Origin: Heptranchias perlo
Taxonomy: Eukaryota
Direction: 5' to 3'
Length of the DNA: 64,000 nucleotides
Assembly (NCBI RefSeq): GCF_035084215.1
Contig: NW_027139260.1
Coordinates: 62,001 to 126,000 of the forward strand
The notes under the pieces were generated by a model. That model worked only from the letters and a program-made list of their open reading frames with translations, searched no databases and was not told the origin of the DNA. The first letter of the stretch is position 1. The number at the start of each line of letters is the position of its first letter. This document shows positions 1 through 30,576 of this stretch, piece by piece. The position numbers and the translations under genes were made by a program.

Positions 1-287
1 AGCTTGTGATGTAAAATCAGGGTGTGCAGCTCCCCACACGCACTGAGAATCCTCGTTCTCCGTCCCCTTGTTCCCCATTCACCCACCAGTGGAAACAATC
101 TCACTATTTACCCACAGTAAGGTCCCCAGGTTTTACTCACCCCTTTACAGAGTGCTCCTCTCTCAGTGCTACTCCCACTCACCACCTTGCTGCTGCTCCT
201 GGCACTGCAGGAAATGCTGGTCCCCTCGCCCACCCCATTCCCCAGTCTCCATCTCCCCCCAATCCCCAGTCTCCCTCTCTTTCCCCC

Positions 288-408
288 CGAGCCCCGATCT
301 CCCGACTCGCCCCGAGCCCTGATCACCCGACTCCCCCCCGCACTCGAGCCCGATCACCCGACTCCTGCCCCCCACCGAGCTCCGATCACCCGACTTCAGC
401 CATCCGAG
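288..408. repeat. Short degenerate tandem repeat, about 4-5 copies of GAGCCC(C)GATCACCCGACTC
   Basis: The motif gagcc..gatc(a/t)cccgact recurs at about 289, 315, 346 and 377, directly before the L2 coding homology begins. Confidence 0.6.
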
Positions 409-1864
409 TCCCAAGTAAAACCATTACTCTCTTCCACCCTGGTCGTTCCCCATCTCCACCCCTTAAGTCCAAGGGACACAGACTTGAACGTTTATGGCGG
501 ACAACTGGTTTAGCCATTCATCGCCAGATCTGGCTGGACCACATAAAGCACTATCGGGTCCTGCTCTCCTCTGCCCAAACTGCTCACTATTCCAGGATCA
601 TCCTGGAATGTAAAGATAATCCCCGGCTTCTCTTCACTACAAACCGTCCTCTTAAACCCCTCTATCCTGCCCCCTCCACCCTCATCTCCAACAAGTGCGA
701 GGAGCTCATGGACTTCTTTGTCACTAAGATTAAGACCATTCATTCAGCTGCCTCTGATGCTTCCCCCCTTCCCCGAGCCCACAAGCCAAACCTTCCCCTA
801 CGGTTCCCCCCTGCCCTGGCCCTGACCCCATGTCTCACTCTAGTTTCTCCCCTATCTCACCTCATGCCCTCTCCGAGCTCATCCTGACCATGAGACCCAC
901 CTCCTGTTCCCTCAATCCTATTCCCAATAAACTGATGACCACCCAACTTCCCTTCCTGGCTCCTATGTTTGCTGATATTGTTAACGGTTCCCTCTCCTCA
1001 GGTACTGTCCCCCTCCCCATTAAATCTGCTGTCTTCAACCCCCCCCCCCCCTCAAAAAACACACCCCTGACCATTTTCCAATCAGGTTTCCACCCCTGTC
1101 ACAGTACTGAAACGGCCCTGATCAAAGTCACAAATGACATCCTCTGTGACTGTGACCGTGGTAAACGATCCCTCCTCATCCTTCTCCACCTGTCTGCAGC
1201 CGTTGACCACACCATCCTCCTCCAACACCTCTCCTCCATCGTCCAGCTGGGTGGGACTGCGCTCACCTGGTTCCATTCTTATCTATCCAGTCGTAGCCAG
1301 AGAATCACCTGCAATGGCTTCTCTTCCCACTCCCGCACCGTTACCTCTGGAGTCCCCCAAGGATCGATCCTTCGCCCCCTCCTATTTCTCATCTCCACGC
1401 TGCCCCTCGGTGACATCATCCTAAAACACAACGTCAGGTTCCACATGTACACTGACGACCCCCAGCTCGACCTCACCACCACCTCCCTCGACCCCTCCAC
1501 TCTCTCTCATTGGTCACATTGTTTGTCCGACATCCAGGACTGGAGGAGCAAAAATTTCCTCCAATTAAATATTGGGGAGACTGAAGCCATTGTCTTCGGT
1601 CCCGGATTTCCTTCACCCCACCATTGGCGGCCGTGCTTCAGCTGCCTAAAGCCTAAGCTCTGGAATTCCCTCCCTAAAGCCCTCCACCTCTCTCCATTCT
1701 CCTTTAAGAAACTCCTTAAAATCAATTATTTGACCAAGCATTTAGCCATCCCATGTAATGTCTCCTTCTTTGGCTCGGTGTCAACCTTTGTCTGAATACG
1801 CTCCAGTGAAGCGCCTTGGGGCATTTTCCTACGTAAAAGGTGCTATATAAATGCAAGTTGTTGT
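405..1864 (+). mobile_element. Decayed L2-clade LINE (ORF2/RT remnant plus 3' end), antisense within intron 1 of the MHC-like gene
   Basis: Translations show L2 RT motifs: FQSGFHPCHSTETALIKVTND, LHLSAAVDH, GVPQGSILRP, HMYTDD (degenerate YADD), FLQLNIGETE, KLWNSLP. There is a frameshift near 830-887 and apparent internal deletions near 1070 and 1605. The element ends in an L2-type tail, GGTGCTATATAAATGCAAGTTGTTGT. Confidence 0.9.
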
Positions 1865-3320
1865 AATATAAATATAAATATAAATATAACTCACAGACTG
1901 CACTCCCTGTAATAACACCACACTGAGCCCAGTGAGATCAGGATTATTAATATAATATAATAACTCACAGACTGCACTCCCTGTAATAACACCACACTGA
2001 GCCCAGTGAGATCAGGATTATTAATATAAATATAATAACTCACAGACTGCACTCCCTGTAATAACACCACACTGAGCCCGGTGAGATCAAGATTATTAAT
2101 ATAAATATAATAACTCACAGACTGCACTCCCTGTAATAACACCACACTGAGCCCAGTGAGATCAGGATTATTAATATAAATATAAATATAATAACTCACA
2201 GCCTGCACTCCCTGTAATAACACCACACTGAGCCCAGTGAGATCAGGATTATTAATATAAATATAAATATAATAACTCACAGCCTGCACTCCCTGTAATA
2301 ACATCACACTGAGCCCAGTGAGATCAGGATTATTAATATAATATAAATAATAACTCACAGACTGCACTCCCTGTAATAACACCACACTGAGCCCAGTGAG
2401 ATCAGGATTATTAATATAATATAAATAATAACTCACAGCCTGCACTCCCTGTAATAACACCACACTGAGCCCAGTGAGATCAGGATTATTAATATAAATA
2501 TAATAACTCACAGCCTGCACTCCCTGTAATAACACCACACTGAGCCCAGTGAGATCAGGATTATTAATATAAATATAACTCACAGCCTGCACTCCCTGCA
2601 ATAACACCACACTGAGCCCAGTGAGATCAGGATTATTAATATAAATATAATAACTCACAGACTGCACTCCCTGTAATAACACCACACTGAGCCCAGTGAG
2701 ATCAGGATTATTAATATAATATAAATATAACTCACAGCCTGCACTCCCTGTAATAACACCACACTGAGCCCAGTGAGATCAGGATTATTAATATAAATAA
2801 TAACTCACAGCCTGCACTCCCTGTAATAACATCACACTGAGCCCAGTGAGATCAGGATTAATAATATAAATATAATAACTCACAGACTGCACTCCCTGTA
2901 ATAACACCACACTGAGCCCAGTGAGATCAGGATTATTAATATAAATATAATAACTCACAGACTGCACTCCCTGTAATAACACCACACTGAGCCCAGTGAG
3001 ATCAGGATTATTAATATAAATATAATAACTCACAGACTGCACTCCCGAAAATAACATCACACTGAGCCCAGTGAGATCAGGATTATTAATATAATATAAT
3101 AACTCACAGACTGCACTCCCTGTAATAACATCACACTGAGCCCAGTGAGATCAGGATTATTAATATAATATAATAACTCACAGACTGCACTCCCTGTAAT
3201 AACACCACTGAGCCCAGTGAGATCAGGATTATTAATATAATATAAATAATAACTCACAGCCTGCGCTCCCTGTAATAACACCACACTGAGCCCAGTGAGA
3301 TCAGGATTATTAATATTAAT
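1865..3320. repeat. Minisatellite, ~75-bp unit (72-81), 19 copies
   Basis: Unit: AACTCACAG(A/C)CTGCACTCCCTGTAATAACACCACACTGAGCCCAGTGAGATCAGGATTATTAATAT plus a variable (ATAAAT/ATAAT) tract. I counted CTCACAG anchors from about 1890 to about 3253. Confidence 0.97.
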
Positions 3321-3363
3321 AATATTTATAATCTGTATTAAATTTTACTATTTAATAACTCAC

Positions 3364-3430
3364 ATTCTCCAGCCCAGGCTCCGTGTATTAAAACCAGCGC
3401 TAACACAGTAAAGTATCGCCCAACTTCCAT
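3364..3430 (-). CDS. mhc2daa: Exon 1 (signal peptide) of a probable MHC class II alpha chain gene; downstream exons lie outside the window (<1)
   Basis: The minus strand reads ATG GAA GTT GGG CGA TAC TTT ACT GTG TTA GCG CTG GTT TTA ATA CAC GGA GCC TGG GCT GGA GAA T|GTGAGT = MEVGRYFTVLALVLIHGAWAGE. It has a hydrophobic core, an A-W-A cleavage motif, and a consensus donor in phase 1 as in MHC leader exons. From memory it resembles the nurse shark class II alpha leader (not database-verified). The X1-Y promoter module lies about 150 bp upstream. Confidence 0.8.
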
Positions 3431-3582
3431 TCTGTTGCTCTTGTGTCTCCTCAATGTGACCAGTCTTCACTCACTGCCAGCTCCTCTTAATCTGCTCTCA
3501 GTCTCTCTCTGAAGTTTAGTTTCTATCTCACTCACTTTACTGAAGTATCACTCTGTAATTGACATGTGGTTTAGGATTAATA

Positions 3583-3592
3583 AACCAATCAC
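3583..3592 (-). promoter_or_regulatory. MHC Y box (inverted CCAAT, NF-Y site)
   Basis: Minus strand GTGATTGGTT versus consensus CTGATTGGYY, about 153 bp upstream of the ATG. Confidence 0.8.
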
Positions 3593-3611
3593 ACATTGAG
3601 ATCTCACCCAT

Positions 3612-3625
3612 CAGCTGTTTCCAGG
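3612..3625 (-). promoter_or_regulatory. MHC X1 box (RFX site)
   Basis: Minus strand CCTGGAAACAGCTG versus HLA-DRA X1 CCTAGCAACAGATG. Exactly 19 nt (3593-3611) separate it from the Y box, matching the conserved 19-20 bp X-Y spacing. Confidence 0.75.
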
Positions 3626-3879
3626 TGAAATGCGAGCCTGTCCTGAATTTCACTGAATGAGTCCTTGCGTTTGTTCTATTTGTGAAAGAATTGCAGTGAG
3701 ATGAAGATTTTTTTCGGTGGAGATGTTTGGAAGTGAAGAGATACTGTTTACTTGTACTGAACTAAACTGTTCCTGTTAATGGTTTTACTCTCTCCTCCAG
3801 ACCCATTCTACATTCCCAGCTAATATGTCGAGTGGAAAGGACCTTGTCCATTCTGTTTGATTTAACAGCATTTATCAGA

Positions 3880-3987
3880 AATAAAAACAGATGCTGGAAA
3901 CACTCAGCAGGTCAGGCAGCATCTGTGGGGAGAGAAACAGGGTTAATATTTCAGGTCGATGACCTTTCATCAGTATTAATCAGAACT
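3880..3987 (-). mobile_element. Short interspersed repeat remnant, probably a Penelope-like element terminus, with a degenerate minimal hammerhead core
   Basis: AAAAACAGATGCTGGAAACACTCAGCAGGTCAGGCAGCATCTGTGG...GTTAATATTTCAGGTCGATGACCTTTCATCAG resembles a common shark repeat (recollection). The minus strand carries CTGATGA-a-AGGTC-atc-GACCT-GAAA. Confidence 0.55.
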
Positions 3988-9134: not shown

Positions 9135-11536
9135 TTTATTTTTAATTTTCTTTTGTTCGTTCATGGGATGTGGGCGTCGCTGGTGAGGCCGGCATTTATT
9201 GCCCATCCCTAATTGGCCTTGAGAAGGTGGTGGTGAGCTGCCTTCTTGAACCGCTGCAGTCCGTGTGGTGAAGGTTCTCCCACAGTGCTGTTAGGAAGGG
9301 AGTTCCAGGATTTTGACCCAGCGACGATGAAGGAACGGCGATATATTTCCAGGACGGGATGGTGTGTGACTTGGAGGGGAACGTACAGGTGGTGTTGTTC
9401 CCATGTGCCTGCTGCTCTTGTCCTTCTAGGTGGTAGAGGTCGCGGGTTTGGGAGGTGCTGTCGAAGAAGCCTTGGCGAGTTGCTGCAGTGCATCCTGAGG
9501 ATGGTACAAACTGTAGCCACTGTGCGCCGGTGGTGAAGGGAGTGAAGTTTAGGGTGGTGGATGGGGTGCCAATGAAGCTTTGTCCTGGATTGTGTCGAGC
9601 TTCTTGAGTGTTGTTGGAGCTGCACTCATCCAGGCAAGTGGAGAGCATTCCATCACACTCCTGACTTGTGCCTTGTAGATGGTGGAAAGGCTTTGGGGAG
9701 TCAGGAGGTGAGTCACTCGCTGCAGAATACCCAGCCTCTTACCTGCTCTTGTAGCCACAGTATTTATGTGGCTGGTCCAGTTAAGTTTCTGGTCAATGGT
9801 GACCCCCAGGATGTTGATGGTGGGGGATTCAGCGATGGTAATGCCATTGAATGTCAAGGGGAGGTGGTTAGACTCTCTCTTGTTGGACATGGTCATTGTC
9901 TGGCACGAATGTTACTTGCCACTTATCAGCCCAAGCCTGGATGTTGTCCAGGTCTTGCTGCATGCAGGCTCGGACTGCTTCATTATTTGAGGGGTTACAA
10001 ATGGAACTGAACACTGTGCAATCATCAGCGAACATCCCCATTTCTGACCTTATGCTGGAGGGATGGTCATTGATGAAGCAGCTGAAGATGATTGGGACTA
10101 GGACACTGCCCTGAGGAACTCCTGCAGCAATGTCCTGGGGCTGAGATGATTGGCCTCCAACAACCACTACCATTTTCCTTTGTGCTAGGTATGACTCCAG
10201 CCACTGGAGAGTTTTCCCCCTGATTCCCATTGACTTCAATTTTACTCGGGCTCCTTGGTGCCACACTCGGTCAAATGCTGCCTTGATGTCAAGGGCAGTC
10301 ACTCTCACCTCACCTCTGGAATTCAGCTCTTTTGTCCATGTTTGGACCAAGGCTGTAATGAGGTCTGGAGCCGAGTGGTCCTGGCGGAACCCAAACTGAG
10401 CATCGGTGAGCAGGTTATTAGTAAGTGCCGCTTGATAGCACTGTCGATGACTCCTTCCATCATTTTGCTGATGATTGAGAGCAGACTGATGGGGCGGTAA
10501 TTGGCCGGATTGGATTTGTCCTGCTTTTTGTGGACAGGACATACCTGGGCAATTTTTCACATTGTCGGGTAGATGCCAGTGTTGTCGCTGTACTGGAACA
10601 GCTTGGCTAGAGGCGCAGCTAGTTCTGGAGCACAAGTCTTCAGCACTACAGCTGGGATGTTGTCGGGGCCCATAGCCTTTGCTGTACCCAGTGCACTCAG
10701 CCGTTTCTTGATATCACGTGGAGTGAATCGAATTGGCTGAAGACTGGTTTCTGTGATGGTGGGGATATCGGGAGGAGGCCGAGATGGATCATCCACTCGG
10801 CACTTCTGGCTGAAGATGATTGCAAACGCTTCAGCCTTGTCTTTTGCACTCACGTGCTGGACTCCGCCATCATTGAGGATGGGGATGTTTGCAGAGCCTC
10901 CTCCTCCCGTTAGTTGTTTAATTGTCCACCACTATTCACGACTGGATGTGGCAGGACTGCAGAGCTTTGATCTGATCCGTTGGTTGTGGAATCGCTTAGC
11001 TCTGTCTATAGCATGTTGCTTCCGCTGTTTCGCATGCACGTGGTCCTGTGTTGTAGCTTCACCAGGTTGGCACCTCGTTTTTCGGTACGCCTGGTGCTGC
11101 TCCTGGCATGCTCTTCTACACTCCTCATTGAACCAGGGTTGATCCCCTGGCTTGTTGGTAATGGTAGAGTGAGGAATATGCCGGGCCATGAGGTTACAGA
11201 TTGTGCTGGAATACAATTCTGCTGCTGCTGATGGCCCACAGCGCCTCATGGATGCCCAGTTTTGAGCTGCAAGATCTGTTCTGAATCTCGCCCATTTCGC
11301 ACGGTGATCGTGCCACACAACACGATGGATGGTGTCCTCAGTGTGAAGACAGGACTTCGTCTCCACGAGGACAGTGCGGTGGTCCCTCCTACCAATAATG
11401 TCATGGACAGATGCATTTGTGCATGTGGATTGTTGAGGACGAGGTCAAGTAGGTTTTTCCCTCGTGTTGGTTCAATCACCTCCTGCCGCAGGCCCAGTCT
11501 GCAGCTCTGTCCTTCAGGACTCGGCCAGCTCGGTCA
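9135..11536 (-). mobile_element. Decayed LINE of a second family (CR1/Jockey group): end of endonuclease, RT, and 3' poly(A) end
   Basis: Frameshifted minus-strand fragments: EPTRGKNLLDLVL, QPWFNEEC, KAMGPDNIP, QFGFRQDHS, ALDIKAAFDRVWH, GVPQGSVL, MFADD, WQVTF, ILGVTIDQKLNW, SWNSLP. The 3' end has AATAAA (9195-9200 region) and an A-rich tail (about 9135-9155). Confidence 0.9.
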
Positions 11537-14500
11537 CTTTCTCTGTCCCACTGAGTGAGTGAGGGGGGAAATAATCAAACTATCGCCTGGTTTACACCCG
11601 TCACGTTCTCTGTCCCACTGAGTGAGGGGGAAATAATCAAACTATCGCCTGGTTTACACCCGTCACATTCTCTGTCCCACTGAGTGAGGGGAAATAATCA
11701 AACTATCGCCTGGTTTACACCCGTCACATTCTCTGTCCCACTGAGTGAGGGGGAAATAATCAAACTATCGCCTGGTTTACACCCGTCACATTCTCTGTCC
11801 CACTGAGTGAATGGAAATAATCAAACTATCGCCTAGTTTACACCCGTCACATTCTCTGTCCCACTGAGTGAGGGGAAATAATCAAACTATCGCCTGGTTT
11901 ACACCCGTCACATTCTCTGTCCCACTGAGTGAGGGGAAATAATCAAACTATCGCCTGGTTTACACCCGTCACATTCTCTGTCCCACTGAGTGAGGGGAAA
12001 TAATCAAACTATCGCCTGGTTTACACCCGTCACATTCTCTGTCCCACTGAGTGAGGGGAAATAATCAAACTATCGCCTGGTTTACACCCGTCACATTCTC
12101 TGTCCCACTGAGTGAGTGAGGGGGGAAATAATCAAACTATCGCCTGGTTTACACCCGTCACATTCTCTGTCCCACTGAGTGAGGGGAAATAATCAAACTA
12201 TCGCCTGGTTTACACCCGTCACATTCTCTGTCCCACTGAGTGAGGGGAAATAATCAAACTATCGCCTGGTTTACACCCGTCACATTATCTGTCCCACTGA
12301 GTGAATGGAAATAATCAAACTATCGCCTGGTTTACACCCGTCACATTCTCTGTCCCACTGAGTGAGGGGAAATAATCAAACTATCGCCTGGTTTACACCC
12401 GTCACATTCTCTGTCCCACTCAGTGAGGGGAAATAATCAAACTATCGCCTGGTTTACACCCGTCACATTCTCTGTCCCACTGAGTGAGGGGAAATAATCA
12501 AACTATCGCCTGGTTTACACCCGTCAATTTCTCTGTCCCACTGAGTGAGTGGAAATAATCAAACTATCGCCTGGTTTACACCCGTCACATTCTCTGTCCC
12601 ACTCAGTGAGGGGAAATAATCAAACTATCGCCTGGTTTACACCCGTCACATTATCTGTCCCACTGAGTGAGGGGAAATAATCAAACTATCGCCTGGTTTA
12701 CACCCGTCACATTCTCTGTCCCACTGAGTGAATGGAAATAATCAAACTATCGCCTGGTTTACACCCGTCACATTCTCTGTCCCACTGAGTGAGGGGAAAT
12801 AATCAAACTATCGCCTGGTTTACACCCGTCACATTCTCTGTCCCACTGAGTGAGGGGAAATAATCAAACTATCGCCTGGTTTACACCCGTCACATTCTCT
12901 GTCCCACTGAGTGAGGGGAAATAATCAAACTATCGCCTGGTTTACACCCGTCACATTCTCTGTCCCACTGAGTGAGGGGAAATAATCAAACTATCGCCTG
13001 GTTTACACCCGTCACATTCTCTGTCCCACTCAGTGAGGGGGGAAATAATCAAACTATCGCCTGGTTTACACCCGTCACATTCTCTGTCCCACTGAGTGAG
13101 GGGGAAATAATCAAACTATCGCCTGGTTTACACCCGTCACATTCTCTGTCCCACTGAGTGAGGGGGAAATAATCAAACTATCGCCTGGTTTACACCCGTC
13201 ACATTCTCTGTCCCACTGAGTGAGTGAGGGGAAATAATCAAAATATCGCCTGGTTTACACCCGTCACATTCTCTGTCCCACTGAGTGAGGGGGAAATAAT
13301 CAAACTATCGCCTGGTTTACACCCGTCACATTCTCTGTCCCACTGAGTGAGTGGAAATAATCAAACTATCGCCTGGTTTACACCCGTCACATTCTCTGTC
13401 CCACTGAGTGAGGGGAAATAATCAAACTATCGCCTGGTTTACACCCGTCACATTCTCTGTCCCACTGAGTGAGTGAGGGGAAATAATCAAACTATCGCCT
13501 GGTTTACACCCGTCACATTCTCTGTCCCACTGAGTGAGGGGAAATAATCAAACTATCGCCTGGTTTACACCCGTCACATTCTCTGTCCCACTGAGTGAGT
13601 GAGGGGGGAAATAATCAAACTATCGCCTGGTTTACACCCGTCACATTCTCTGTCCCACTGAGTGAGTGAGGGGAAATAATCAAACTATCGCCTGGTTTAC
13701 ACCCGTCACATTCTCTGTCCCACTGAGTGAGTGAGGGGAAATAATCAAACTATCGCCTGGTTTACACCCGTCACATTCTCTGTCCCACTGAGTGAGTAAG
13801 GGGGAAATAATCAAACTATCGCCTGGTTTACACCCGTCACGTTCTCTGTCCCACTGAGTGAGGGGAAAAACCCGTCACATTCTCTGTCCCACTGAGTGAG
13901 TGAGGGGGGAAATAATCAAACTATCGCCTGGTTTACACCAGTTACATTCTCTGTCCCACTGAGTGAGTGAGGGGGAAATAATCAAACTATCGCCTGGTTT
14001 ACACCCGTCACGTTCTCTGTCCCACTGAGTGAGGGGAAATAATCAAACTATCGCCTGGTTTGCACCCGTCACGTTCTCTGTCCCACTGAGTGAGTGAGGG
14101 GGAAATAATCAAACTATCGCCTGGTTTACACCCGTCACATTCTCTGTCCCACTGAGTGAGGGGGAAATAATCAAACTATCGCCTGGTTTACACCCGTCAC
14201 ATTCTCTGTCCCACTGAGTGAGTGAGGGGGAAATAATCAAACTATCGCCTGGTTTACACCCGTCACATTCTCTGTCCCACTGAGTGAGGGGAAATAATCA
14301 AACTATCGCCTGGTTTACACCCGTCACATTCTCTGTCCCACTGAGTGAGGGGAAATAATCAAACTATCGCCTGGTTTACACCCGTCACATTCTCTGTCCC
14401 ACTGAGTGAGTGAGGGGGAAATAATCAAACTATCGCCTGGTTTACACCCGTCACATTCTCTGTCCCACTGAGTGAGGGGGAAATAATCAAACTATCGCCT

Positions 14501-17500
14501 GGTTTACACCCGTCACATTCTCTGTCCCACAGAGTGAGGGGAAATAATCAAACTATCGCCTGGTTTACACCCGTCAAATTCTCTGTCCCACTGAGTGAGG
14601 GGGAAATAATCAAACTATCGCCTGGTTTACACCCGTCACATTCTCTGTCCCACTGAGTGAGTGAGGGGAAATAATCAAACTATCGCCTGGTTTACACCCG
14701 TCACATTCTCTGTCCCACTGAGTGAGTGAGGGGGGAAATAATCAAACTATTGCCTGGTTTACACCCGTCACATTCTCTGTCCCACTGAGTGAGTGAGGGG
14801 GGAAATAATCAAACTATCGCCTGGTTTACACCCGTCACATTCTCTGTCCCACTGAGTGAGGGGGAAATAATCAAACTATCGCCTGGTTTACACCCGTCAC
14901 ATTCTCTGTCCCACTGAGTGAGGGGAAATAATCAAACTATCTCCTGGTTTACACCCGTCACATTCTCTGTCCCACTGAGTGAGGGGGAAATAATCAAACT
15001 ATCGCCTGGTTTACACCTGTCACATTCTCTGTCCCACTGAGTGAGTGAGGGGGAAATAATCAAACTATCGCCTGGTTTACACCCGTCACATTCTCTGTCC
15101 CACTGAGTGAGTGAGGGGGGAAATAATCAAACTATCGCCTGGTTTACACCCGTCACATTCTCTGTCCCACTGAGTGAGGGGGGAAATAATCAAACTATCG
15201 CCTGGTTTACACCCGTCACGTTCTCTGTCCCACTGAGTGAGGGGAAATAATCAAACTATCTCCTGGTTTACACCCGTCACATTCTCTGTCCCACTGAGTG
15301 AGGGGAAATAATCAAACTATCGCCTGGTTTACACCCGTCACATTCTCTGTCCCACTGAGTGAGGGGAAATAATCAAACTATCTCCTGGTTTACACCCGTC
15401 ACATTCTCTGTCCCACTGAGTGAGTGAAGGGAAATAATCAAACTATCGCCTGGTTTACACCCGTCACATTCTCTGTCCCACTGAGTGAGGGGGAAATAAT
15501 CAAACTATCGCCTGGTTTACACCCGTCACATTCTCTGTCCCACTGAGCGAGTGAGGGGGAAATAATCAAACTATCGCCTGGTTTACACCCGTCACATTCT
15601 CTGTCCCACTGAGTGAGGGGGAAATAATCAAACTATCGCCTGGTTTACACCCGTCACATTCTCTGTCCCACTGAGTGAGGGGAAATAATCAAACTATCGC
15701 CTGGTTTACACCCGTCACATTTTCTGTCCCACTGAGTGAGGGGGAAATAATCAAACTATCGCCTGGTTTACACCCGTCACATTCTCTGTCCCACTGAGTG
15801 AGTGAGGGGGAAATAATCAAACTATCGCCTGGTTTACACCCGTCACATTCTCTGTCCCACTGAGTGAGGGGAAATAATCAAACTATCGCCTGGTTTACAC
15901 CCGTCACATTCTCTGTCCCACTGAGTGAGGGGGAAATAATCAAACTATCGCCTGGTTTACACCCGTCACATTCTCTGTCCCACTGAGTGAGTGAGGGGGA
16001 AATAATCAAACTATCGCCTGGTTTACACCCGTCACATTCTCTGTCCCACTGAGTGAGTGAGGGGGAAATAATCAAACTATCGCCTGGTTTACACCCGTCA
16101 CATTCTCTGTCCCACTGAGTGAGTGAGGGGAAATAATCAAACTATCGCCTGGTTTACACCCGTCACATTTTCTGTCCCACTGAGTGAGGGGGAAATAATC
16201 AAACTATCGCCTGGTTTACACCCGTCACATTCTCTGTCCCACTGAGTGAGTGAGGGGGAAATAATCAAACTATCGCCTGGTTTACACCCGTCACATTCTC
16301 TGTCCCACTGAGTGAGGGGGAAATAATCAAACTATCGCCTGGTTCACACCCGTCACATTCTCTGTCCCACTGAGTGAGGGGGAAATAATCAAACTATCGC
16401 CTGGTTTACACCCGTCACATTCTCTGTCCCACTGAGCGAGTGAGGGGGAAATAATCAAACTATCGCCTGGTTTACACCCGTCACATTCTCTGTCCCACTG
16501 AGTGAGGGGAAATAATCAAACTATCGCCTGGTTTACACCCGTCACATTCTCTGTCCCACTGAGTGAGGGGAAATAATCAAACTATCGCCTGGTTTACACC
16601 CGTCACATTCTCTGTCCCACTGAGTGAGTGGGAAATAATCAAACTATCGCCTGGTTTACACCCGTCACATTCTCTGTCCCACTGAGTGAGTGAGGGGGGA
16701 AATAATCAAACTATCGCCTGGTTTACACCCGTCACATTCTCTGTCCCACTGAGTGAGGGGGAAATAATCAAACTATCGCCTGGTTTACACCCGTCACATT
16801 CTCTGTCCCACTGAGTGAGTGAGGGGAAATAATCAAACTATCGCCTGGTTCACACCCGTCACATTCTCTGTCCCACTGAGCGAGTGAGGGGGAAATAATC
16901 AAACTATCGCCTGGTTTACACCCGTCACATTCTCTGTCCCACTGAGTGAGTGAGGGGGAAATAATCAAACTATCGCCTGGTTTACACCCGTCACATTCTC
17001 TGTCCCACTGAGTGAGGGGGAAATAATCAAACTATCGCCTGGTTTACACCCGTCACATTCTCTGTCCCACTGAGTGAGGGGAAATAATCAAACTATCGCC
17101 TGGTTTACACCCGTCACATTCTGTGTCCCACTGAGTGAGGGGGAAATAATCAAACTATCGCCTGGTTTACACCCGTCACATTCTCTGTCCCACTGAGCGA
17201 GTGAGGGGGAAATAATCAAACTATCGCCTGGTTTACACCCGTCACATTCTCTGTCCCACTGAGTGAGGGGAAATAATCAAACTATCGCCTGGTTTACACC
17301 CGTCACATTCTCTGTCCCACTGAGTGAGGGGAAATAATCAAACTATCGCCTGGTTTACACCCGTCACATTCTCTGTCCCACTGAGTGAGGGGAAATAATC
17401 AAACTATCGCCTGGTTTACACCCGTCACATTCTCTGTCCCACTGAGTGAGTGAGGGGAAATAATCAAACTATCGCCTGGTTTACACCCGTCACATTCTCT

Positions 17501-20500
17501 GTCGCACTGAGTGAGGGGGAAATGATCAAACTATCGCCTGGTTTACACCCGTCACATTCTCTGTCCCACTGAGTGAGTGAGGGGAAATAATCAAACTATC
17601 GCCTGTTTCACACCCGTCACATTCTCTGTCCCACTGAGTGAGTGAGGGGGAAATAATCAAACTATCGCCTGGTTTACACCCGTCACATTCTCTGTCCCAC
17701 TCAGTGAGGGGAAATAATCAAACTATCGCCTGGTTTACACCCGTCACATTCTCTGTCCCACTCAGTGAGGGGAAATAATCAAACTATCGCCTGGTTTACA
17801 CCCGTCACATTCTCTGTCCCACTGAGTGAGTGAGGGGGAAATAATCAAACTATCGCCTGGTTTACACCCGTCACATTCTCTGTCCCACTGAGTGAGTGAG
17901 GGGGAAATAATCAAACTATCGCCTGGTTTACACCCGTCACATTCTCTGTCCCACTGAGTGAGGGGGAAATAATCAAACTATCGCCTGGTTTACACCCGTC
18001 ACATTCTCTGTCCCACTGAGTGAGTGAGGGGAAATAATCAAACTATCGCCTGGTTTACACCCGTCACATTCTCTGTCCCACTGAGTGAGGGGGAAATAAT
18101 CAAACTATCGCCTGGTTCACACCCGTCACATTCTCTGTCCCACTGAGTGAGGGGGGAAATAATCAAACTGTCGCCTGGTTTACACCCGTCACATTCTCTG
18201 TCCCACTGAGTGAGGGGGAAATAATCAAACTATCGCCTGGTTTACACCCGTCACATTCTCTGTCCCACTGAGTGAGTGAGGGGAAATAATCAAACTATCG
18301 CCTGGTTTACACCCGTCACATTCTCTGTCCCACTGAGTGAGGGGAAATAATCAAACTATCGCATGGTTCACACCCGTCACATTCTCTGTCCCACTGAGTG
18401 AGTGAGGGGGAAATAATCAAACTATCGCCTGGTTTACACCCGTCACATTCTCTGTCCCTCTGAGTGAGGGGGAAATAATCAAACTATCGCCTGGTTTACA
18501 CCCGTCACATTCTCTGTCCCACTGAGTGAGTGGAAATAATCAAACTATCTCCTGGTTTACACCCGTCACATTCTCTGTCCCACTGAGTGAGTGGAAATAA
18601 TCAAACTATCGCCTGGTTTACACCCGTCACATTCTCTGTCCCACTGAGTGAGGGGAAATAATCAAACTATCGCCTGGTTTACACCCGTCACATTCTCTGT
18701 CCCACTGAGTGAGGGGAAATAATCAAACTGTCGCCTGGTTTACACCCGTCACATTCTCTGTCGCACTGAGTGAGTGAGGGGAAATAATCAAACTATCGCC
18801 TGGTTTACACCCGTCACATTCTCTGTCCCACTGAGTGAGTGAGGGGGAAATAATCAAACTATCGCCTGGTTTACACCCGTCACATTCTCTGTCCCACTGA
18901 GTGAGGGGGAAATAATCAAACTATCGCCTGGTTTACACCCGTCACATTCTCTGTCCCACTGAGTGAGTGGAAATAATCAAACTATCGCCTGGTTTAAACC
19001 CGTCACATTCTCTGTCCCACTGAGTGAGTGGAAATAATCAAACTATCTCCTGGTTTACACCCGTCACATTCTCTGTCCCACTGAGTGAGTGAAGGGAAAT
19101 AATCAAACTATCGCCTGGTTTACACCCGTCACATTCTCTGTCCCACTGAGTGAGGGGGAAATAATCAAACTATCGCCTGGTTTACACCCGTCACATTCTC
19201 TGTCCCACTGAGCGAGTGAGGGGGAAATAATCAAACTATCGCCTGGTTTACACCCGTCACATTCTCTGTCCCACTGAGTGAGGGGGAAATAATCAAACTA
19301 TCGCCTGGTTTACACCCGTCACATTCTCTGTCCCACTGAGTGAGGGGAAATAATCAAACTATCGCCTGGTTTACACCCGTCACATTTTCTGTCCCACTGA
19401 GTGAGGGGGAAATAATCAAACTATCGCCTGGTTTACACCCGTCACATTCTCTGTCCCACTGAGTGAGTGAGGGGGAAATAATCAAACTATCGCCTGGTTT
19501 ACACCCGTCACATTCTCTGTCCCACTGAGTGAGGGGAAATAATCAAACTATCGCCTGGTTCACACCCGTCACATTCTCTGTCCCACTGAGTGAGGGGGAA
19601 ATAATCAAACTATCGCCTGGTTTACACCCGTCACATTCTCTGTCCCACTGAGCGAGTGAGGGGGAAATAATCAAACTATCGCCTGGTTTACACCCGTCAC
19701 ATTCTCTGTCCCACTGAGTGAGGGGAAATAATCAAACTATCGCCTGGTTTACACCCGTCACATTCTCTGTCCCACTGAGTGAGGGGAAATAATCAAACTA
19801 TCGCCTGGTTTACACCCGTCACATTCTCTGTCCCACTGAGTGAGTGGGAAACAATCAAACTATCGCCTGGTTTACACCCGTCACATTCTCTGTCCCACTG
19901 AGTGAGTGAGGGGGGAAATAATCAAACTATCGCCTGGTTTACACCCGTCACATTCTCTGTCCCACTGAGTGAGGGGGAAATAATCAAACTATCGCCTGGT
20001 TTACACCCGTCACATTCTCTGTCCCACTGAGTGAGTGAGGGGAAATAATCAAACTATCGCCTGGTTCACACCCGTCACATTCTCTGTCCCACTGAGCGAG
20101 TGAGGGGGAAATAATCAAACTATCGCCTGGTTTACACCCGTCACATTCTCTGTCCCACTGAGTGAGTGAGGGGGAAATAATCAAACTATCGCCTGGTTTA
20201 CACCCGTCACATTCTCTGTCCCACTGAGTGAGGGGGAAATAATCAAACTATCGCCTGGTTTACACCCGTCACATTCTCTGTCCCACTGAGTGAGGGGAAA
20301 TAATCAAACTATCGCCTGGTTTACACCCGTCACATTCTGTGTCCCACTGAGTGAGGGGGAAATAATCAAACTATCGCCTGGTTTACACCCGTCACATTCT
20401 CTGTCCCACTGAGCGAGTGAGGGGGAAATAATCAAACTATCGCCTGGTTTACACCCGTCACATTCTCTGTCCCACTGAGTGAGGGGAAATAATCAAACTA

Positions 20501-23500
20501 TCGCCTGGTTTACACCCGTCACATTCTCTGTCCCACTGAGTGAGGGGAAATAATCAAACTATCGCCTGGTTTACACCCGTCACATTCTCTGTCCCACTGA
20601 GTGAGGGGAAATAATCAAACTATCGCCTGGTTTACACCCGTCACATTCTCTGTCCCACTGAGTGAGTGAGGGGAAATAATCAAACTATCGCCTGGTTTAC
20701 ACCCGTCACATTCTCTGTCGCACTGAGTGAGGGGGAAATGATCAAACTATCGCCTGGTTTACATCCGTCACATTCTCTGTCCCACTGAGTGAGTGAGGGG
20801 AAATAATCAAACTATCGCCTGTTTCACACCCGTCACATTCTCTGTCCCACTGAGTGAGTGAGGGGGAAATAATCAAACTATCGCCTGGTTTACACCCGTC
20901 ACATTCTCTGTCCCACTCAGTGAGGGGAAATAATCAAACTATCGCCTGGTTTACACCCGTCACATTCTCTGTCCCACTCAGTGAGGGGAAATAATCAAAC
21001 TATCGCCTGGTTTACACCCGTCACATTCTCTGTCCCACTGAGTGAGTGAGGGGGAAATAATCAAACTATCGCCTGGTTTACACCCGTCACATTCTCTGTC
21101 CCACTGAGTGAGTGAGGGGGAAATAATCAAACTATCGCCTGGTTTACACCCGTCACATTCTCTGTCCCACTGAGTGAGGGGGAAATAATCAAACTATCGC
21201 CTGGTTTACACCCGTCACATTCTCTGTCCCACTGAGTGAGTGAGGGGAAATAATCAAACTATCGCCTGGTTTACACCCGTCACATTCTCTGTCCCACTGA
21301 GTGAGGGGGAAATAATCAAACTATCGCCTGGTTCACACCCGTCACATTCTCTGTCCCACTGAGTGAGGGGGGAAATAATCAAACTGTCGCCTGGTTTACA
21401 CCCGTCACATTCTCTGTCCCACTGAGTGAGGGGGAAATAATCAAACTATCGCCTGGTTTACACCCGTCACATTCTCTGTCCCACTGAGTGAGTGAGGGGA
21501 AATAATCAAACTATCGCCTGGTTTACACCCGTCACATTCTCTGTCCCACTGAGTGAGGGGAAATAATCAAACTATCGCATGGTTCACACCCGTCACATTC
21601 TCTGTCCCACTGAGTGAGTGAGGGGGAAATAATCAAACTATCGCCTGGTTTACACCCGTCACATTCTCTGTCCCTCTGAGTGAGGGGGAAATAATCAAAC
21701 TATCGCCTGGTTTACACCCGTCACATTCTCTGTCCCACTGAGTGAGTGGAAATAATCAAACTATCTCCTGGTTTACACCCGTCACATTCTCTGTCCCACT
21801 GAGTGAGTGGAAATAATCAAACTATCGCCTGGTTTACACCCGTCACATTCTCTGTCCCACTGAGTGAGGGGAAATAATCAAACTATCGCCTGGTTTACAC
21901 CCGTCACATTCTCTGTCCCACTGAGTGAGGGGAAATAATCAAACTGTCGCCTGGTTTACACCCGTCACATTCTCTGTCGCACTGAGTGAGTGAGGGGAAA
22001 TAATCAAACTATCGCCTGGTTTACACCCGTCACATTCTCTGTCCCACTGAGTGAGTGAGGGGGAAATAATCAAACTATCGCCTGGTTTACACCCGTCACA
22101 TTCTCTGTCCCACTGAGTGAGGGGGAAATAATCAAACTATCGCCTGGTTTACAACCGTCACATTCTCTGTCCCACTGAGTGAGTGGAAATAATCAAACTA
22201 TCGCCTGGTTTAAACCCGTCACATTCTCTGTCCCACTGAGTGAGTGGAAATAATCAAACTATCGCCTGGTTCACACCCGTCACATTCTCTGTCCCACTGA
22301 GTGAGTGAGGGGAAATAATCAAACTATCGCCTGGTTTACACCCGTCACATTCTTTGTCCCACTGAGTGAGTGAGGGGCAAATAATCAAACTATCGCCTGG
22401 TTTACACCCGTCACATTCTCTGTCCCACTGAGTGAGTGAGGGGAAATAATCAAACTATCGCCTGGTTTACACCCGTCACATTCCCTGTCCCACTGAGTGA
22501 GTGGAAATAATCAAACTATCGCCTGGTTTACACCCGTCACATTCTCTGTCCCACTGAGTGAGTGGAAATAATCAAACTATTGCCTGGTTTACACCCGTCA
22601 CATTCTCTGTCCCACTGAGTGAGGGGAAATAATCAAACTATCGCCTGGTTTACACCCGTCACATTCTCTGTCCCACTGAGTGAGTGGAAATAATCAAACT
22701 ATCGCCTGGTTTACACCCGTCACATTCTCTGTCCCACTGAGTGAGGGGGGAAATAATCAAACTATCGCCTGGTTTACACCCGTCACATTCTCTGTCCCAC
22801 TGAGTGAGGGGAAATAATCAAACTATCGCCTGGTTTACACCGTCACATTCTCTGTCCCACTGAGTGAGGGGAAATAATCAAACTATCGCCTGGTTTACAC
22901 CCGTCACATTCTCTGTCCCACTGAGTGAGGGGAAATAATCAAACTATCGCCTGGTTTACACCCGTCACATTCTCTGTCCCACTGAGTGAGGGGGAAATAA
23001 TCAAACTATCGCCTGGTTTACACCCGTCACATTCTCTGTCCCACTGAGTGAGTGAAGGGAAATAATCAAACTATTGCCTGGTTTACACCCGTCACATTCT
23101 CTGTCCCACTGAGTGAGGGGGAAATAATCAAACTATCGCCTGGTTTACACCTGTCACATTCTCTGTCCCACTGAGTGAGTTCGGGGGGAAATAATCAAAC
23201 TATCGCCTGGTTCACACCCGTCACATTCTCTGTCCCACTGAGTGAGGGGGGAAATAATCAAACTATCGCCTGGTTTACACCCGTCACATTCTCTGTCCCA
23301 CTGAGTGAGGGGCGAAATAATCAAACTATCGCCTGGTTTACACCCGTCACATTCTCTGTCCCACTGAGTGAGGGGAAATAATCAAACTATCGCCTGGTTT
23401 ACACCCGTCACATTCTCTGTCCCACTGAGTGAGGGGAAATAATCAAACTATCGCCTGGTTTACACCCGTCACATTCTCTGTCCCACTGAGTGAGGGGAAA

Positions 23501-26500
23501 TAATCAAACTATCGCCTGGTTTACACCCGTCACATTCTCTGTCCCACTGAGTGAGTGGAAATAATCAAACTATCGCCTGGTTTACACACGTCACATTCTC
23601 TGTCCCACTGAGTGAGTGAGGGGAAATAATCAAACTATCGCCTGGTTTGCACCCGTCACATTCTCTGTCCCACTGAGTGAGTGAGGGGCAAATAATCAAA
23701 CTATCGCCTGGTTTACACCCGTCACATTCTCTGTCCCACTGAGTGAGTGAGGGGAAATAATCAAACTATCGCCTGGTTTACACCCGTCACATTCTCTGTC
23801 CCACTGAGTGAGTGGAAATAATCAAACTATCGACTGGTTTACACCGTCACATTCTCTGTCCCACTGAGTGAGTGGAAATAATCAAACTATCGCCTGGTTT
23901 ACACCCGTCACATTCTCTGTCCCACTGAGTGAGTGGAAATAATCAAACTATCGCCTGGTTTACACCCGTCACATTCTCTGTCCCACTGAGTGAGTTAGGG
24001 GGGAAATAATCAAACTATCGCCTGGTTTACACACGTTACATTCTCTGTCCCACTGAGTGAGGGGAAATAATCAAACTATCGCCTGGTTTACAACCGTCAC
24101 ATTCTCTGTCCCACTGAGTGAGTGGAAATAATCAAACTATCGCCTGGTTTACACCCGTCACATTCTCTGTCCCACTGAGTGAGTGAGGGGAAATAATCAA
24201 ACTATCGCCTGGTTTACACCCGTCACATTCTCTGTCCCACTGAGTGAGTGAGGGGCAAATAATCAAACTATCGCCTGGTTTACACCCGTCACATTCTCTG
24301 TCCCACTGAGTGAGTGAGGGGAAATAATCAAACTATCGCCTGGTTTACACCCGTCACATTCTCTGTCCCACTGAGTGAGTGGAAATAATCAAACTATCGC
24401 CTGGTTTACACCCGTCACATTCTCTGTCCCACTGAGTGAGTGGAAATAATCAAACTATCGCCTGGTTTACACCCGTCACATTCTCTGTCCCACTGAGTGA
24501 GTGGAAATAATCAAACTATCGCCTGGTTTACACCCGTCACATTCTCTGTCCCACTGAGTGAGTGGAAATAATCAAACTATCGCCTGGTTTACACCCGTCA
24601 CATTCTCTGTCCCACTGAGTGAGGGGAAATAATCAAACTATCGCCTGGTTTACACCCGTCACATTCTCTGTCGCACTGAGTGAGTGAAGGGAAATAATCA
24701 AACTATCGCCTGGTTTACACCCGTCACATTCTCTGTCCCACTGAGTGAGTGGAAATAATCAAACTATCGCCTGGTTTACACCCGTCACGTTCTCTGTCCC
24801 ACTGAGTGAGTGAGGGGAAATAATCAAACTATCGCCTGGTTTACACCCGTCACATTCTCTGTCCCACTGAGTGAGGGGGGAAATAATCAAACTATCGCCT
24901 GGTTTACACCCGTCACATTCTCTGTCCCACTGAGTGAGGGGAAATAATCAAACTATCGCCTGGTTTACACCCGTCACATTCTCTGTCCCACTGAGTGAGG
25001 GGAAATAATCAAACTATCGCCTGGTTGACACCCGTCACATTCTCTGTCCCATTGACTGAGGGGAAATAATCAAACTATCGCCTGGTTTACACCCGTCACA
25101 TTCTCTGTCCCACTGAGTGAGGGGGAAATAATCAAACTATCGCCTGGTTTACACCCGTCACATTCTCAGTCCCACTGAGTGAGTGAAGGGAAATAATCAA
25201 ACTATCGCCTGGTTTACACCCGTCACATTCTCTGTCCCACTGAGTGAGGGGGAAATAATCAAACTATCGCCTGGTTTACACCCGTCACATTCTCTGTCCC
25301 ACTGAGTGAGTGAGGGGGGAAATAATCAAACTATCGCCTGGTTTACACCCGTCACATTCTCTGTCCCACTGAGTGAGGGGGGAAATAATCAAACTATCGC
25401 CTGGTTTACACCCGTCACATTCTCTGTCCCACTGAGTGAGGGGAAATAATCAAACTATCGCCTGGTTTACACCCGTCACATTCTCTGTCCCACCGAGTGA
25501 GGGGAAATAATCAAACTATCGCCTGGTTTACACCCGTCACATTCTCTGTCCCACTGATTGAGGGGAAATAATCAAACTATCGCCTGGTTTACACACGTCA
25601 CATTCTCTGTCCCACTGAGTGAGGGGAAATAATCAAACTATCGCCTGGTTTACACCCGTCACATTCTCTGTCCCACTGAGTGAGTGAAGGGAAATAATCA
25701 AACTATCGCCTGGTTTACACCCGTCACATTCTCTGTCCCACTGAGTGAGTGAGGGGGAAATAATCAAACTATCGCCTAGTTTACACCCGTCACATTCTCT
25801 GTCCCACTGAGTGAGGGGAAATAATCAAACTATCTCCTGGTTTACACCCGTCACATTCTCTGTCCCACTGAGTGAGGGGGAAATATTCAAACTATCGCCT
25901 GGTTTACACCCGTCACATTCTCTGTCCCACTGAGTGAGTGGAAATAATCAAACTATCGCCTGGTTTACACCCGTCACATTCTCTGTTCCACTGAGTGAGT
26001 GAGGGGGAAATAATCAAACTATCGCCTGGTTTACACCCGTCACATTCTCTGTCCCACTGAGTGAAGGGAAATAATCAAACTATCGCCTGGTTTACACCCG
26101 TCACGTTCTCTGTCCCACTGAGTGAGGGGAAATAATCAAACTATCGCCTGGTTTACACCCGTCACATTCTCTGTCCCACTGAGTGAGTGAGGGGAAATAA
26201 TCAAACTATCGCCTGGTTTACACCCGTCACATTCTCTGTCCCACTGAGTGAGTGAGGGGGGAAATAATCAAACTATCGCCTGGTTTACACCCGTCACATT
26301 CTCTGTCCCACTGAGTGAGGGGAAATAATCAAACTATCGCCTGGTTTACACCCGTCACATTCTCTGTCCCACTGAGTGAGTGAAGGGAAATAATCAAACT
26401 ATCGCCTGGTTTACACCCGTCACATTCTCTGTCCCACTGAGTGGGGGGAAATAATCAAACTATCGCCTGGTTTACACCCGTCACATTCTCTGTCCCACTG

Positions 26501-29500: not shown

Positions 29501-30576
29501 CACATTCTCTGTCCCACTGAGTGAGGGGAAATAATCAAACTATCGCCTGGTTTACACCCGTCACATTCTCTGTCCCACTGAGTGAGGGGAAATAATCAAA
29601 CTATCGCCTGGTTTACACCCGTCACATTCTCTGTCCCACTGAGTGAAGGGAAATAATCAAACTATCGCCTGGTTTACACCCGTCACATTCTCTGTCCCAC
29701 TGAGTGAGGGGAAATAATCAAACTATCGCCTGGTTTACACCCGTCACATTCTCTGTCCCACTGAGTGAGGGGAAATAATCAAACTATCGCCTGGTTTACA
29801 CCCGTCACATTCTCTGTCCCACTGAGTGAGGGGAAATAATCAAACTATCGCCTGGTTTACACCCGTCACATTCTCTGTCCCACTGAGTGAGTGAGGGGGA
29901 AATAATCAAACTATCGCCTGGTTTACACCCGTCACATTCTCTGTCCCACTGAGTGAGGGGGAAATAATCAAACTATCGCCTGGTTTACACCCGTCACATT
30001 CTCTGTCCCACTGAGTGAGTGAGGGGGAAATAATCAAACTATCGCCTGGTTTACACCCGTCACATTCTCTGTCCCACTGAGTGAGGGGGGAAATAATCAA
30101 ACTATCGCCTGGTTTACACCCGTCACATTCTCTGTCCCACTGAGTGAGGGGGAAATATTCAAACTATCGCCTGGTTTACACCCGTCACATTCTCTGTCCC
30201 ACTGAGTGAGTGAGGGGGAAATAATCAAACTATCGCCTGGTTTACACCCGTCACATTCTCTGTCCCACTGAATGAGGGGAAATAATCAAACTATCGCCTG
30301 GTTTACACCCGTCACATTCTCTGTCGCACTGAGTGAGGGGAAATAATCAAACTATCTCCTGATTTACACCCGTCACATTCTCTGTCCCACTGAGTGAGTG
30401 AGGGGGAAATTATCAAACTGTCGCGTGGTTTACACCTGTCACATTCTCTGTCCCACTGAGTGAGGGGAAATAATCAAACTATCGCCTGGTTTACACCCGT
30501 CACATTCTCTGTCCCACTGAGTGAGGGGAAATAATCAAACTATCGCCTGGTTTACACCCGTCACATTCTCTGTCCC
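11533..30576. repeat. ~19-kb satellite array, 61-bp base unit (61-67), roughly 300 copies
   Basis: Unit GTCACATTCTCTGTCCCACTGAGT(GAGT)GAG4-6AAATAATCAAACTATCGCCTGGTTTACACCC. Length varies only through an optional GAGT and the G-run; substitutions are rare. Confidence 0.99.

What the first reader, a model, noticed from the sequence alone, without database searches (positions are those of the whole stretch)
3364..3650. Hidden immune gene: MHC class II alpha leader exon with an intact X1-19 bp-Y promoter, missed by the ORF track
Seen: a 22-codon signal peptide with a phase-1 GTGAGT donor, and upstream CCTGGAAACAGCTG-N19-GTGATTGGTT. Established: RFX (X1) and NF-Y (Y) sites at this spacing recruit CIITA in MHC class II promoters. 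The spacer also contains ATCTCAA, as I recall for HLA-DRA. No convincing S box or CRE-like X2 is present (ATGGGTGA follows X1). Inference: the enhanceosome geometry is conserved in a cartilaginous fish, with diverged S and X2 elements.
Basis: partly seen in the sequence, partly recalled or inferred. Interest (0 to 1): 0.7.

Follow-up and report, generated by a model that had tools for sequence, protein, structure and literature searches.

The report
Shark MHC class II alpha promoter
This is the first exon of an intact, already annotated shark immune gene (MHC class II alpha), and just upstream lie two of the four control boxes known from mammalian class II genes at nearly the same spacing, so it is likely switched on by the same protein complex as in mammals.

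Summary
Confirmed, but not hidden. The 67-nt exon at 3430-3364 (minus) is exon 1 of an intact MHC class II alpha gene. Exons 2-4 lie 14.6-29 kb beyond the window edge. The spliced 247-aa product is identical to RefSeq XP_067834313-15, labelled Heptranchias perlo. Contigs from two probable RNA runs splice at this donor, into a different allele or locus.

The X1 / 19 bp / Y module is real: it is the only consensus match in the window, and 0 of 100 shuffles match. X1, the Y core and the spacing are invariant in two other species while the spacer changes (P about 0.02-0.04). B2M has the same module with an identical Y box.

S and X2 are absent here, although other modules in this genome carry both. 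Against: a loose pattern shows no genome-wide spacing excess, CD74 lacks the module, and no class II beta gene was found.

RFX/NF-Y/CIITA use is inferred. I found no shark class II promoter in print, but this scan noted such modules before in other shark MHC genes.

The parts
3612..3625 (-). X1-like box (predicted RFX site)
   Evidence: 2 mismatches to a recalled class II X1 consensus; no listed substitution in organisms B or C
3593..3611 (-). 19-nt X1-Y spacer; the X2 slot (TGATGGG, overlapping the end of X1) is not CRE-like
   Evidence: length kept without indel in B and C; 5 of 19 positions vary, two of them in the X2 slot in B
3583..3592 (-). Y box (inverted CCAAT; predicted NF-Y site)
   Evidence: GTGATTGG invariant in B and C, 3584 is C in both; same 10-mer as the B2M Y box
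3642..3647 (-). S-box slot 16 nt before X1: no S box (TTCAGG)
   Evidence: best match to a recalled S pattern has 3 of 6 mismatches; 3642 differs in B and C and 3641 in C
3431..3524 (-). 5' UTR; upstream limit approximate (start likely near 3524)
   Evidence: RNA? contigs X5 and X7 reach 3492 and 3483; the deep contig of X10 (other species) ends at 3524; contigs cannot show a start, so a weak hint; no upstream ATG in 3524-3431
3364..3430 (-). Coding part of exon 1 (leader peptide, 22 codons + 1 nt) of MHC class II alpha
   Evidence: 22 of 22 residues identical to RefSeq P0002; 11-20 of 22 identical in 17 of the 20 other cartilaginous-fish class II alpha proteins compared and 0 of 22 in one N-truncated model (rows P0003-P0020)
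3358..3363 (-). Phase-1 splice donor GTGAGT
   Evidence: RNA? contigs of three runs continue into exon-2-like sequence at the phase expected for this donor
1..3363 (-). Start of intron 1 (14,577 nt in all; exon 2 begins at G000:C1093:50786, outside the window)
1867..3321 (.). 75-bp satellite (19 copies) in intron 1; carries 19 further copies of the donor-like 8-mer GTGAGTTA

Best explanation
This is the leader exon and proximal promoter of an intact shark MHC class II alpha gene, whose X1 and Y boxes likely bind RFX and NF-Y and would recruit CIITA as in mammals, although recognisable S and X2 boxes are missing. Shown: four GT-AG, phase-1 coding exons on C1093 (65430-65364, 50786-50538, 40418-40137, 36148-36003) give a stop-free 247-aa chain identical to a RefSeq protein; probable RNA contigs splice from this donor; the X1-19-Y module sits 152 nt before the ATG and keeps sequence and spacing in two other species. 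Inferred: RFX5/RFXAP/RFXANK binds X1 and NF-Y binds Y on one helix face; this scaffold clears nucleosomes and sets a TATA-less start about 60 nt downstream; CIITA docks on it to give expression in antigen-presenting cells. CREB/ATF, if present, would be held by protein contacts on a degenerate site.
For: Gene: PF00993 E 3e-16 and C1-set E 1e-19; 247 of 247 identity to XP_067834313-15; splice-consistent loose ends in X5, X7 and X10. Module: 1 match and 0 of 100 shuffles. 0 of 22 core positions vary against 16 variable sites in the flanking 104-126 nt, P 0.016-0.037. B2M promoter has X1-20-Y with an identical Y box. In 953 kb of held stretches 11 of 12 modules found over spacers 8-35 have spacers of 19-21; 7 of these 11 were not among the hits that made me fetch the stretches. 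Distance to ATG (152) is within the bat range 92-152 (PMC5437515, passages), and the Y box lies about 60 nt from the putative start, matching 50-100 bp in human (PMC2677874, passages). RFXAP domain and an RFX5-like N-terminal exon (RFX5 versus RFX7 judged from recall) are in the genome. CIITA has a whale shark ortholog (PMC8455134, passage). X2 is the least conserved element at human CIITA sites, and S/W is absent from many (PMC4381081, passages).
Against: S and X2 tested and not met, yet both matter for HLA-DRA (PMC4381081, passages). With a loose pattern there is no genome-wide spacing excess: 134 hits over 26 spacings (5.2 each) against 20 over spacings 20-23 (5.0 each); the 20:1 ratio to the reversed control therefore overstates the case. 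CD74, which has an S-Y module in human, shows an ATTGG at -150 but no X1 match, and no module in 80 kb. No class II beta gene was found in the assembly, so the partner promoter is untested. The footprint rests on two unnamed species with one contig each and region limits that I chose; the stretch near the putative start is also invariant. The spacer is 19, whereas the other 14 modules listed have 20 or 21. A near-perfect module lies in a GC-rich promoter-like stretch on C20 with no MHC exon found nearby. CIITA was not looked up in this genome. The RNA label of the runs is a guess by the tool.
Confidence: 0.8

Rival explanations
1. The gene is class II alpha and RFX plus NF-Y bind, but as a general RFX/CCAAT promoter (RFX1-3 or RFX7 type, or with NLRC5) that does not depend on CIITA.
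For: No S or X2; no module at CD74; X1-like plus ATTGG pairs are common at all spacings; a module occurs on C20 away from any MHC exon found; most human CIITA-bound non-MHC sites are not CIITA-dependent (PMC4381081, passages).
Against: Spacing fixed across species and concentrated at 19-21 in B2M and the C1093, C1382 and C20 stretches; the S box is the element that confers NLRC5 specificity (PMC4374748, passages) and it is missing here.
Confidence: 0.13
2. Only the CCAAT (Y) box is functional; the X1 likeness and its spacing are coincidence, and cell-type control comes from other sites or distal enhancers.
For: Footprint P is modest (0.016-0.037); X1 has 2 mismatches to the recalled consensus; the consensus was applied after the site had been pointed out.
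Against: 0 of 100 shuffles and 0 in 5.7 Mb shuffled; X1 invariant over 14 nt in two species while the adjacent spacer carries 5 changes.
Confidence: 0.06
3. The exon is an orphan leader, or belongs to a non-classical, DM-like or W-category gene.
For: The RNA contigs laid show a different exon-2 start from the assembly (7 of 30 nt differ), so the assembled allele itself was not seen spliced; no beta gene on the contig.
Against: Intact ORF identical to RefSeq; 53-67 of 83 identity in alpha1 and 67-81 of 94 in alpha2 to other shark and ray class II alpha chains; DM is reported absent from cartilaginous fish (PMC8010645, passages).
Confidence: 0.01

Closest known systems
RefSeq XP_067834313.1 / 14.1 / 15.1 (H-2 class II A-Q alpha chain-like, Heptranchias perlo)
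   Same: 247 of 247 residues
   Different: Nothing at protein level; the promoter is not part of that record as shown by the tool
Nurse shark class II alpha (AAA49310/AAA49311; DAA and DBA lineages of PMC8010645)
   Same: Same length and domain layout; 14/22, 56/83, 72/94, 41/48 identity to AAA49311 by exon; no Trp at alpha43 (Pro here, from the alignment; nurse shark Ala per PMC4219347, passage)
   Different: Does not join the well-supported nurse shark / Stegostoma alpha2 clade; lineage unresolved in my tree
Mammalian class II W/S-X1-X2-Y module (HLA-DRA type; RFX, CREB, NF-Y, CIITA)
   Same: X1, Y, order, near-identical spacing and position before the gene
   Different: No S/W box, no CRE-like X2; binding not tested
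Teleost class II promoters with conserved motifs (cited in PMC6523485, passages; the primary papers were not read)
   Same: Conserved mammal-like promoter motifs in a fish class II gene
   Different: Cartilaginous rather than bony fish; sequences not compared here
Class I / B2M SXY module (NLRC5; PMC4374748)
   Same: X and Y 20-22 bp apart by that paper's box limits; this shark's B2M has the same Y box
   Different: B2M here also has an ISRE-like site, an S-like 6-mer and a CRE-like X2; the class II alpha promoter has none of these

Membership tests
Classical MHC class II alpha gene | Leader exon ending in phase 1 | tested here: met
Classical MHC class II alpha gene | alpha1 domain exon (PF00993) | tested here: met
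   59.4 bits, cut-off 23; best PDB matches are I-A, I-E, DQ, DP and DR alpha chains
Classical MHC class II alpha gene | alpha2 C1-set exon and CP/TM/cytoplasmic exon, open frame | tested here: met
   no internal stop
Classical MHC class II alpha gene | Spliced transcript | tested here: met
   Exon 1 joined to an exon-2 variant in contigs of 2 same-species runs of 2 laid, and 1 other-species run; RNA status guessed by the tool; the assembled allele's own junction was not seen
Classical MHC class II alpha gene | Allelic polymorphism in alpha1 | tested here: inconclusive
   One variant start of exon 2; allele or unassembled second locus cannot be told apart; only one alpha1 and one alpha2 exon in the assembly
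Classical MHC class II alpha gene | Linked class II beta gene | tested here: inconclusive
   None found on C1093 or in the assembly; the gene lies 36 kb from the contig end and the assembly may be incomplete
Shark DAA versus DBA lineage | Placement by alpha2 domain | tested here: inconclusive
   31-row protein tree, 2 rows left out because the motif extraction failed; query in an unresolved fork; no labelled DBA reference in the set
Class II W/S-X1-X2-Y module | X1 box | tested here: met
   2 mismatches to a recalled consensus; invariant in two species
Class II W/S-X1-X2-Y module | Y box | tested here: met
Class II W/S-X1-X2-Y module | Fixed X-Y spacing | tested here: met
   19 nt, no indel in two species; 19-20 is the recalled mammalian range for these box limits
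Class II W/S-X1-X2-Y module | CRE-like X2 box | tested here: not met
   TGATGGG; two of its positions differ in organism B
Class II W/S-X1-X2-Y module | S/W box about 16 nt before X1 | tested here: not met
   3 of 6 mismatches at best over gaps 14-18; 6 of the other 14 modules listed (4 of one family, 2 duplicates) have AAACCT at exactly 16 nt
Class II W/S-X1-X2-Y module | 50-100 bp upstream of the start site | tested here: inconclusive
   About 60 nt if the start is at 3524, which rests on one contig end in another species
Class II W/S-X1-X2-Y module | Binding of RFX, NF-Y and CIITA; CIITA dependence | not testable with these tools
   Only the presence of RFXAP and an RFX5-like exon was checked

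The most novel reading that the evidence does not exclude
The shark class II alpha promoter is a true two-factor (RFX + NF-Y) enhanceosome. It has no S or X2 box although the same genome builds full S-X1-X2-Y modules elsewhere, so the S/X2 requirement of mammalian class II promoters would be derived, or would be supplied in sharks by arrays of distal modules such as the eight same-strand modules on the apparently MHC-exon-free contig C1382, an early form of the class II super-enhancer.
Probability: 0.2. Interest if true: 0.55.

Novelty: new member of a known kind. Interest (0 to 1): 0.3.

Why it matters
The gene is known and its control switch is of a well-studied kind, so the result is expected rather than surprising. 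It extends the RFX/NF-Y promoter geometry of class II genes to the oldest lineage that has an MHC, and it gives a short, conserved, testable fragment for asking whether CIITA control is as old as class II itself. The contrast inside one genome (S and X2 absent here, present at other modules) offers a natural comparison for what those boxes add.

Tried and rejected
Genome-wide enrichment: one search gave 20 hits against 1 for the reversed pattern, but one search showed the same rate at other spacings, so I dropped it as evidence; the pattern was also written to fit this site. Class II beta: PF00969 gave nothing at E 0.001 and only two weak hits on C48 at E up to 10; C48 looks like a W-category cluster (recalled likeness), and no beta C1 exon was recognised among the 30 loci fetched of 41 C1-set hits. 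RFX5 C-terminal family PF14621: no match, uninformative. CD74 promoter: no module. C1382 as the beta locus: no C1-set exon and no convincing leader after its modules. Run X11 laid nothing, no evidence either way; the run search listed no holder on record as RNA. DAA/DBA assignment unresolved. ATCTCAA as a conserved DRA-like element: rejected. Literature: searches listed no paper on a cartilaginous-fish class II promoter; 'promoter' occurs 0 times in the main text of PMC8010645, PMC10751288 and PMC4219347. Subscription and older papers are not searched and no supplements were opened, so prior description is not excluded. No structure or complex prediction was run, as it would not bear on the question.

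Full report
Observation. On the minus strand the window has ATG at 3430, 22 codons plus one base, and a GTGAGT donor at 3363. Upstream lie CCTGGAAACAGCTG (3625-3612), 19 nt, and GTGATTGGTT (3592-3583), ending 152 nt before the ATG. The exon is the only leader-like phase-1 exon in the window by my scan. A recalled mammalian X1-N19-Y consensus with up to 3 mismatches matches once in 64 kb, and in 0 of 100 shuffles.

The gene. The window is G000:C1093:62001-126000. A genome search with PF00993 found one alpha1 exon, on the same contig and strand. Reading the fetched stretches gave exons at 50786-50538, 40418-40137 and 36148-36003, with AG acceptors, GT donors after exons 1-3, all phase 1, and a further donor just after the stop codon; introns are 14,577, 10,119 and 3,988 nt. 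The spliced frame has 247 residues and no internal stop, and it equals P0002 at every position. P0002 is XP_067834313.1/14.1/15.1, labelled class II alpha-like, Heptranchias perlo. Pfam confirms MHC_II_alpha and C1-set. About 75% of C1093 is tandem repeat, and a class II alpha profile finds only these four exons on it. One alpha2 exon of this kind exists in the assembly. No beta gene was found. An alpha2 tree of 31 proteins did not resolve DAA versus DBA.

Transcripts. Of 4 runs laid on 3300-3900, two probable RNA runs of this species cover 3369-3492 and 3369-3483 with no difference, then continue into sequence like exon 2 at the expected phase. The 30 loose letters differ from the assembly at 7 positions (2 at the end of exon 1, 5 in exon 2), so they come from a second allele or an unassembled locus. 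A run of organism C has nearly the same 30 letters (29 of 30) while differing at 11 positions in exon 1 and UTR, which hints at a shared allelic lineage; old class II lineages are known in sharks (PMC8010645, passages). The deep contig of organism C ends at 3524, about 60 nt below the Y box. Contigs cannot show a start, so this is a weak hint. It fits the 50-100 bp of human class II genes (PMC2677874, passages).

The promoter across species. Contigs of organisms B (DNA) and C cover the module with 16 differences each in 162 and 195 nt, of which 12 and 13 are listed, the rest lying near contig ends. No listed change falls in X1 or in GTGATTGG and there is no indel. Five of 19 spacer positions vary. 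The chance of 0 variable sites in these 22 positions is 0.037 or 0.016, depending on the region chosen. This is the pattern reported for mammals, where spacing is kept and spacer sequence is not (PMC4381081, passages). The X2 slot and the S slot both vary, and the last base of ATCTCAA differs in both species.

The promoter within the genome. A loose X1+ATTGG pattern gave 20 hits at spacers 20-23 against 1 for the reversed control, but 134 hits at spacers 10-35 against 41 (100 of 134 listed), so there is no genome-wide spacing excess at that looseness. With the stricter consensus, 12 modules were found over spacers 8-35 in 953 kb of held stretches and 11 have spacers 19-21. Three of the five stretches (C1093, C1382, C20) were known to hold hits beforehand; 7 of the 11 were new. 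One is the B2M promoter (C736:593831, 3.4 kb before its C1 exon, followed by a leader-like exon): ISRE-like site, S-like 6-mer, X1, TGACCCA, 20-nt spacer and the same Y box. Of the 15 modules tabulated, 6 have AAACCT exactly 16 nt before X1 with TGATTCA or TGACACA in the X2 slot; they belong to two sequence families. The class II alpha module has neither element and is the only one with a 19-nt spacer. CD74 (ATG C14:5724029) has a kB-like site, a PU-box-like site and ATTGG at -150, but no X1 match (motif names recalled).

Trans factors. RFXAP's domain is on C6. Two RFX5_N hits exist; I read the C47 one as RFX5 and the C37 one as RFX7 from recalled sequences. CIITA and NLRC5 orthologs are reported in whale shark (PMC8455134, one passage). 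CIITA was not searched here.

Mechanism. Shown: gene structure, splicing from this donor, presence and conservation of X1, Y and spacing, absence of S and X2. Inferred from mammalian work (PMC4381081, PMC4374748, PMC2677874, passages): RFX on X1 and NF-Y on Y form a phased scaffold, open the chromatin, position the start and recruit CIITA. I give this 0.8, a CIITA-independent RFX/NF-Y promoter 0.13, and a coincidental X1 0.06. It works like an SXY module but fails two defining features, so I do not file it as a full SXY module.

Novelty. The protein is in RefSeq, and shark class II alpha genes are well described (PMC8010645, PMC10751288, passages). Conserved class II promoter motifs are cited for teleosts (PMC6523485, passages). 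Eight searches listed no study of a cartilaginous-fish class II promoter; many journals are outside the library and I opened no supplements. This scan has noted X1-Y modules before at shark class I, class II beta and B2M loci (unchecked notes). Papers: PMC4219347, PMC10751288, PMC1351924, PMC4374748, PMC4381081, PMC8455134, PMC7281430, PMC8010645, PMC6523485, PMC6155461, PMC5437515 and PMC2677874 were seen as passages only; all others as search listings.

Verdict. Real, correctly read by the first stage, but an annotated gene with an expected type of promoter: new member of a known kind, interest 0.3.

Noticed in passing
G000:C1382 (L095-L110), positions 20434, 25305, 34728, 76070, 85144, 131458, 148266, 159481: Eight X1-Y modules in 160 kb, all on the minus strand with spacers of 20 or 21, in non-repeat islands of a contig that is only 13.5% unique and has no C1-set exon; two pairs are duplicates. 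Candidate array of distal enhancers; target gene unknown.
   Followed up: partly
G000:C736:593831 (+), L124: B2M promoter with ISRE-like, S-like, X1, X2-like and Y elements; a short tandem repeat lies between the module and the leader ATG about 470 nt downstream.
   Followed up: partly
G000:C1057:395842, C1161:144199 and 145803, C1854:25860 (L058, L060, L061, L064); C1057:338253 and 352013: Family of complete S(AAACCT)-16-X1-TGATTCA-Y modules, and a second duplicated module with a TGCGTC X2, on contigs of which C1057 and C1161 carry class I-like exons; genes not assigned.
   Followed up: no
G000:C20:58843859 (+), L053: Near-perfect X1-20-CTGATTGGCC module in a GC-rich promoter-like stretch; no MHC exon found in 40 kb; gene not identified.
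   Followed up: partly
window 3368-3364 and start of exon 2 (runs X5, X7, X10): Expressed variant differing from the assembly at 7 of 30 nt and shared at 29 of 30 nt with another species: possible trans-species allele or unassembled second locus.
   Followed up: partly
window 1867-3321: The intron-1 satellite repeats the donor 8-mer GTGAGTTA 19 times, each preceded 12 nt earlier by an AG; the true donor resembles a first copy. Organism B's contig stops matching at 3336. No sign of use as splice sites in the contigs laid.
   Followed up: partly
G000:C14:5724029 (-), L117: CD74 proximal promoter has a GGGACTTTCC kB-like site, a PU-box-like site and ATTGG but no X1, unlike human CD74 (PMC2677874 passage).
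   Followed up: partly
window 3506-3891 (run X10): A low-depth contig from a probable RNA run of organism C covers the promoter upstream of the putative start: upstream transcription or DNA in the run.
   Followed up: no
window 11533-30576 and 34947-63340: 19-kb array of a 61-bp unit and 28 kb of degenerate GGAGAG(C/G)-type repeats upstream of the gene; a 48-nt piece of the 61-bp unit also lies near the end of C1382.
   Followed up: no
G000:C48:1.65-1.76 Mb: Cluster of alternating C1-set exons with weak class II beta-domain hits, probably W-category MHC genes (recalled likeness).
   Followed up: no
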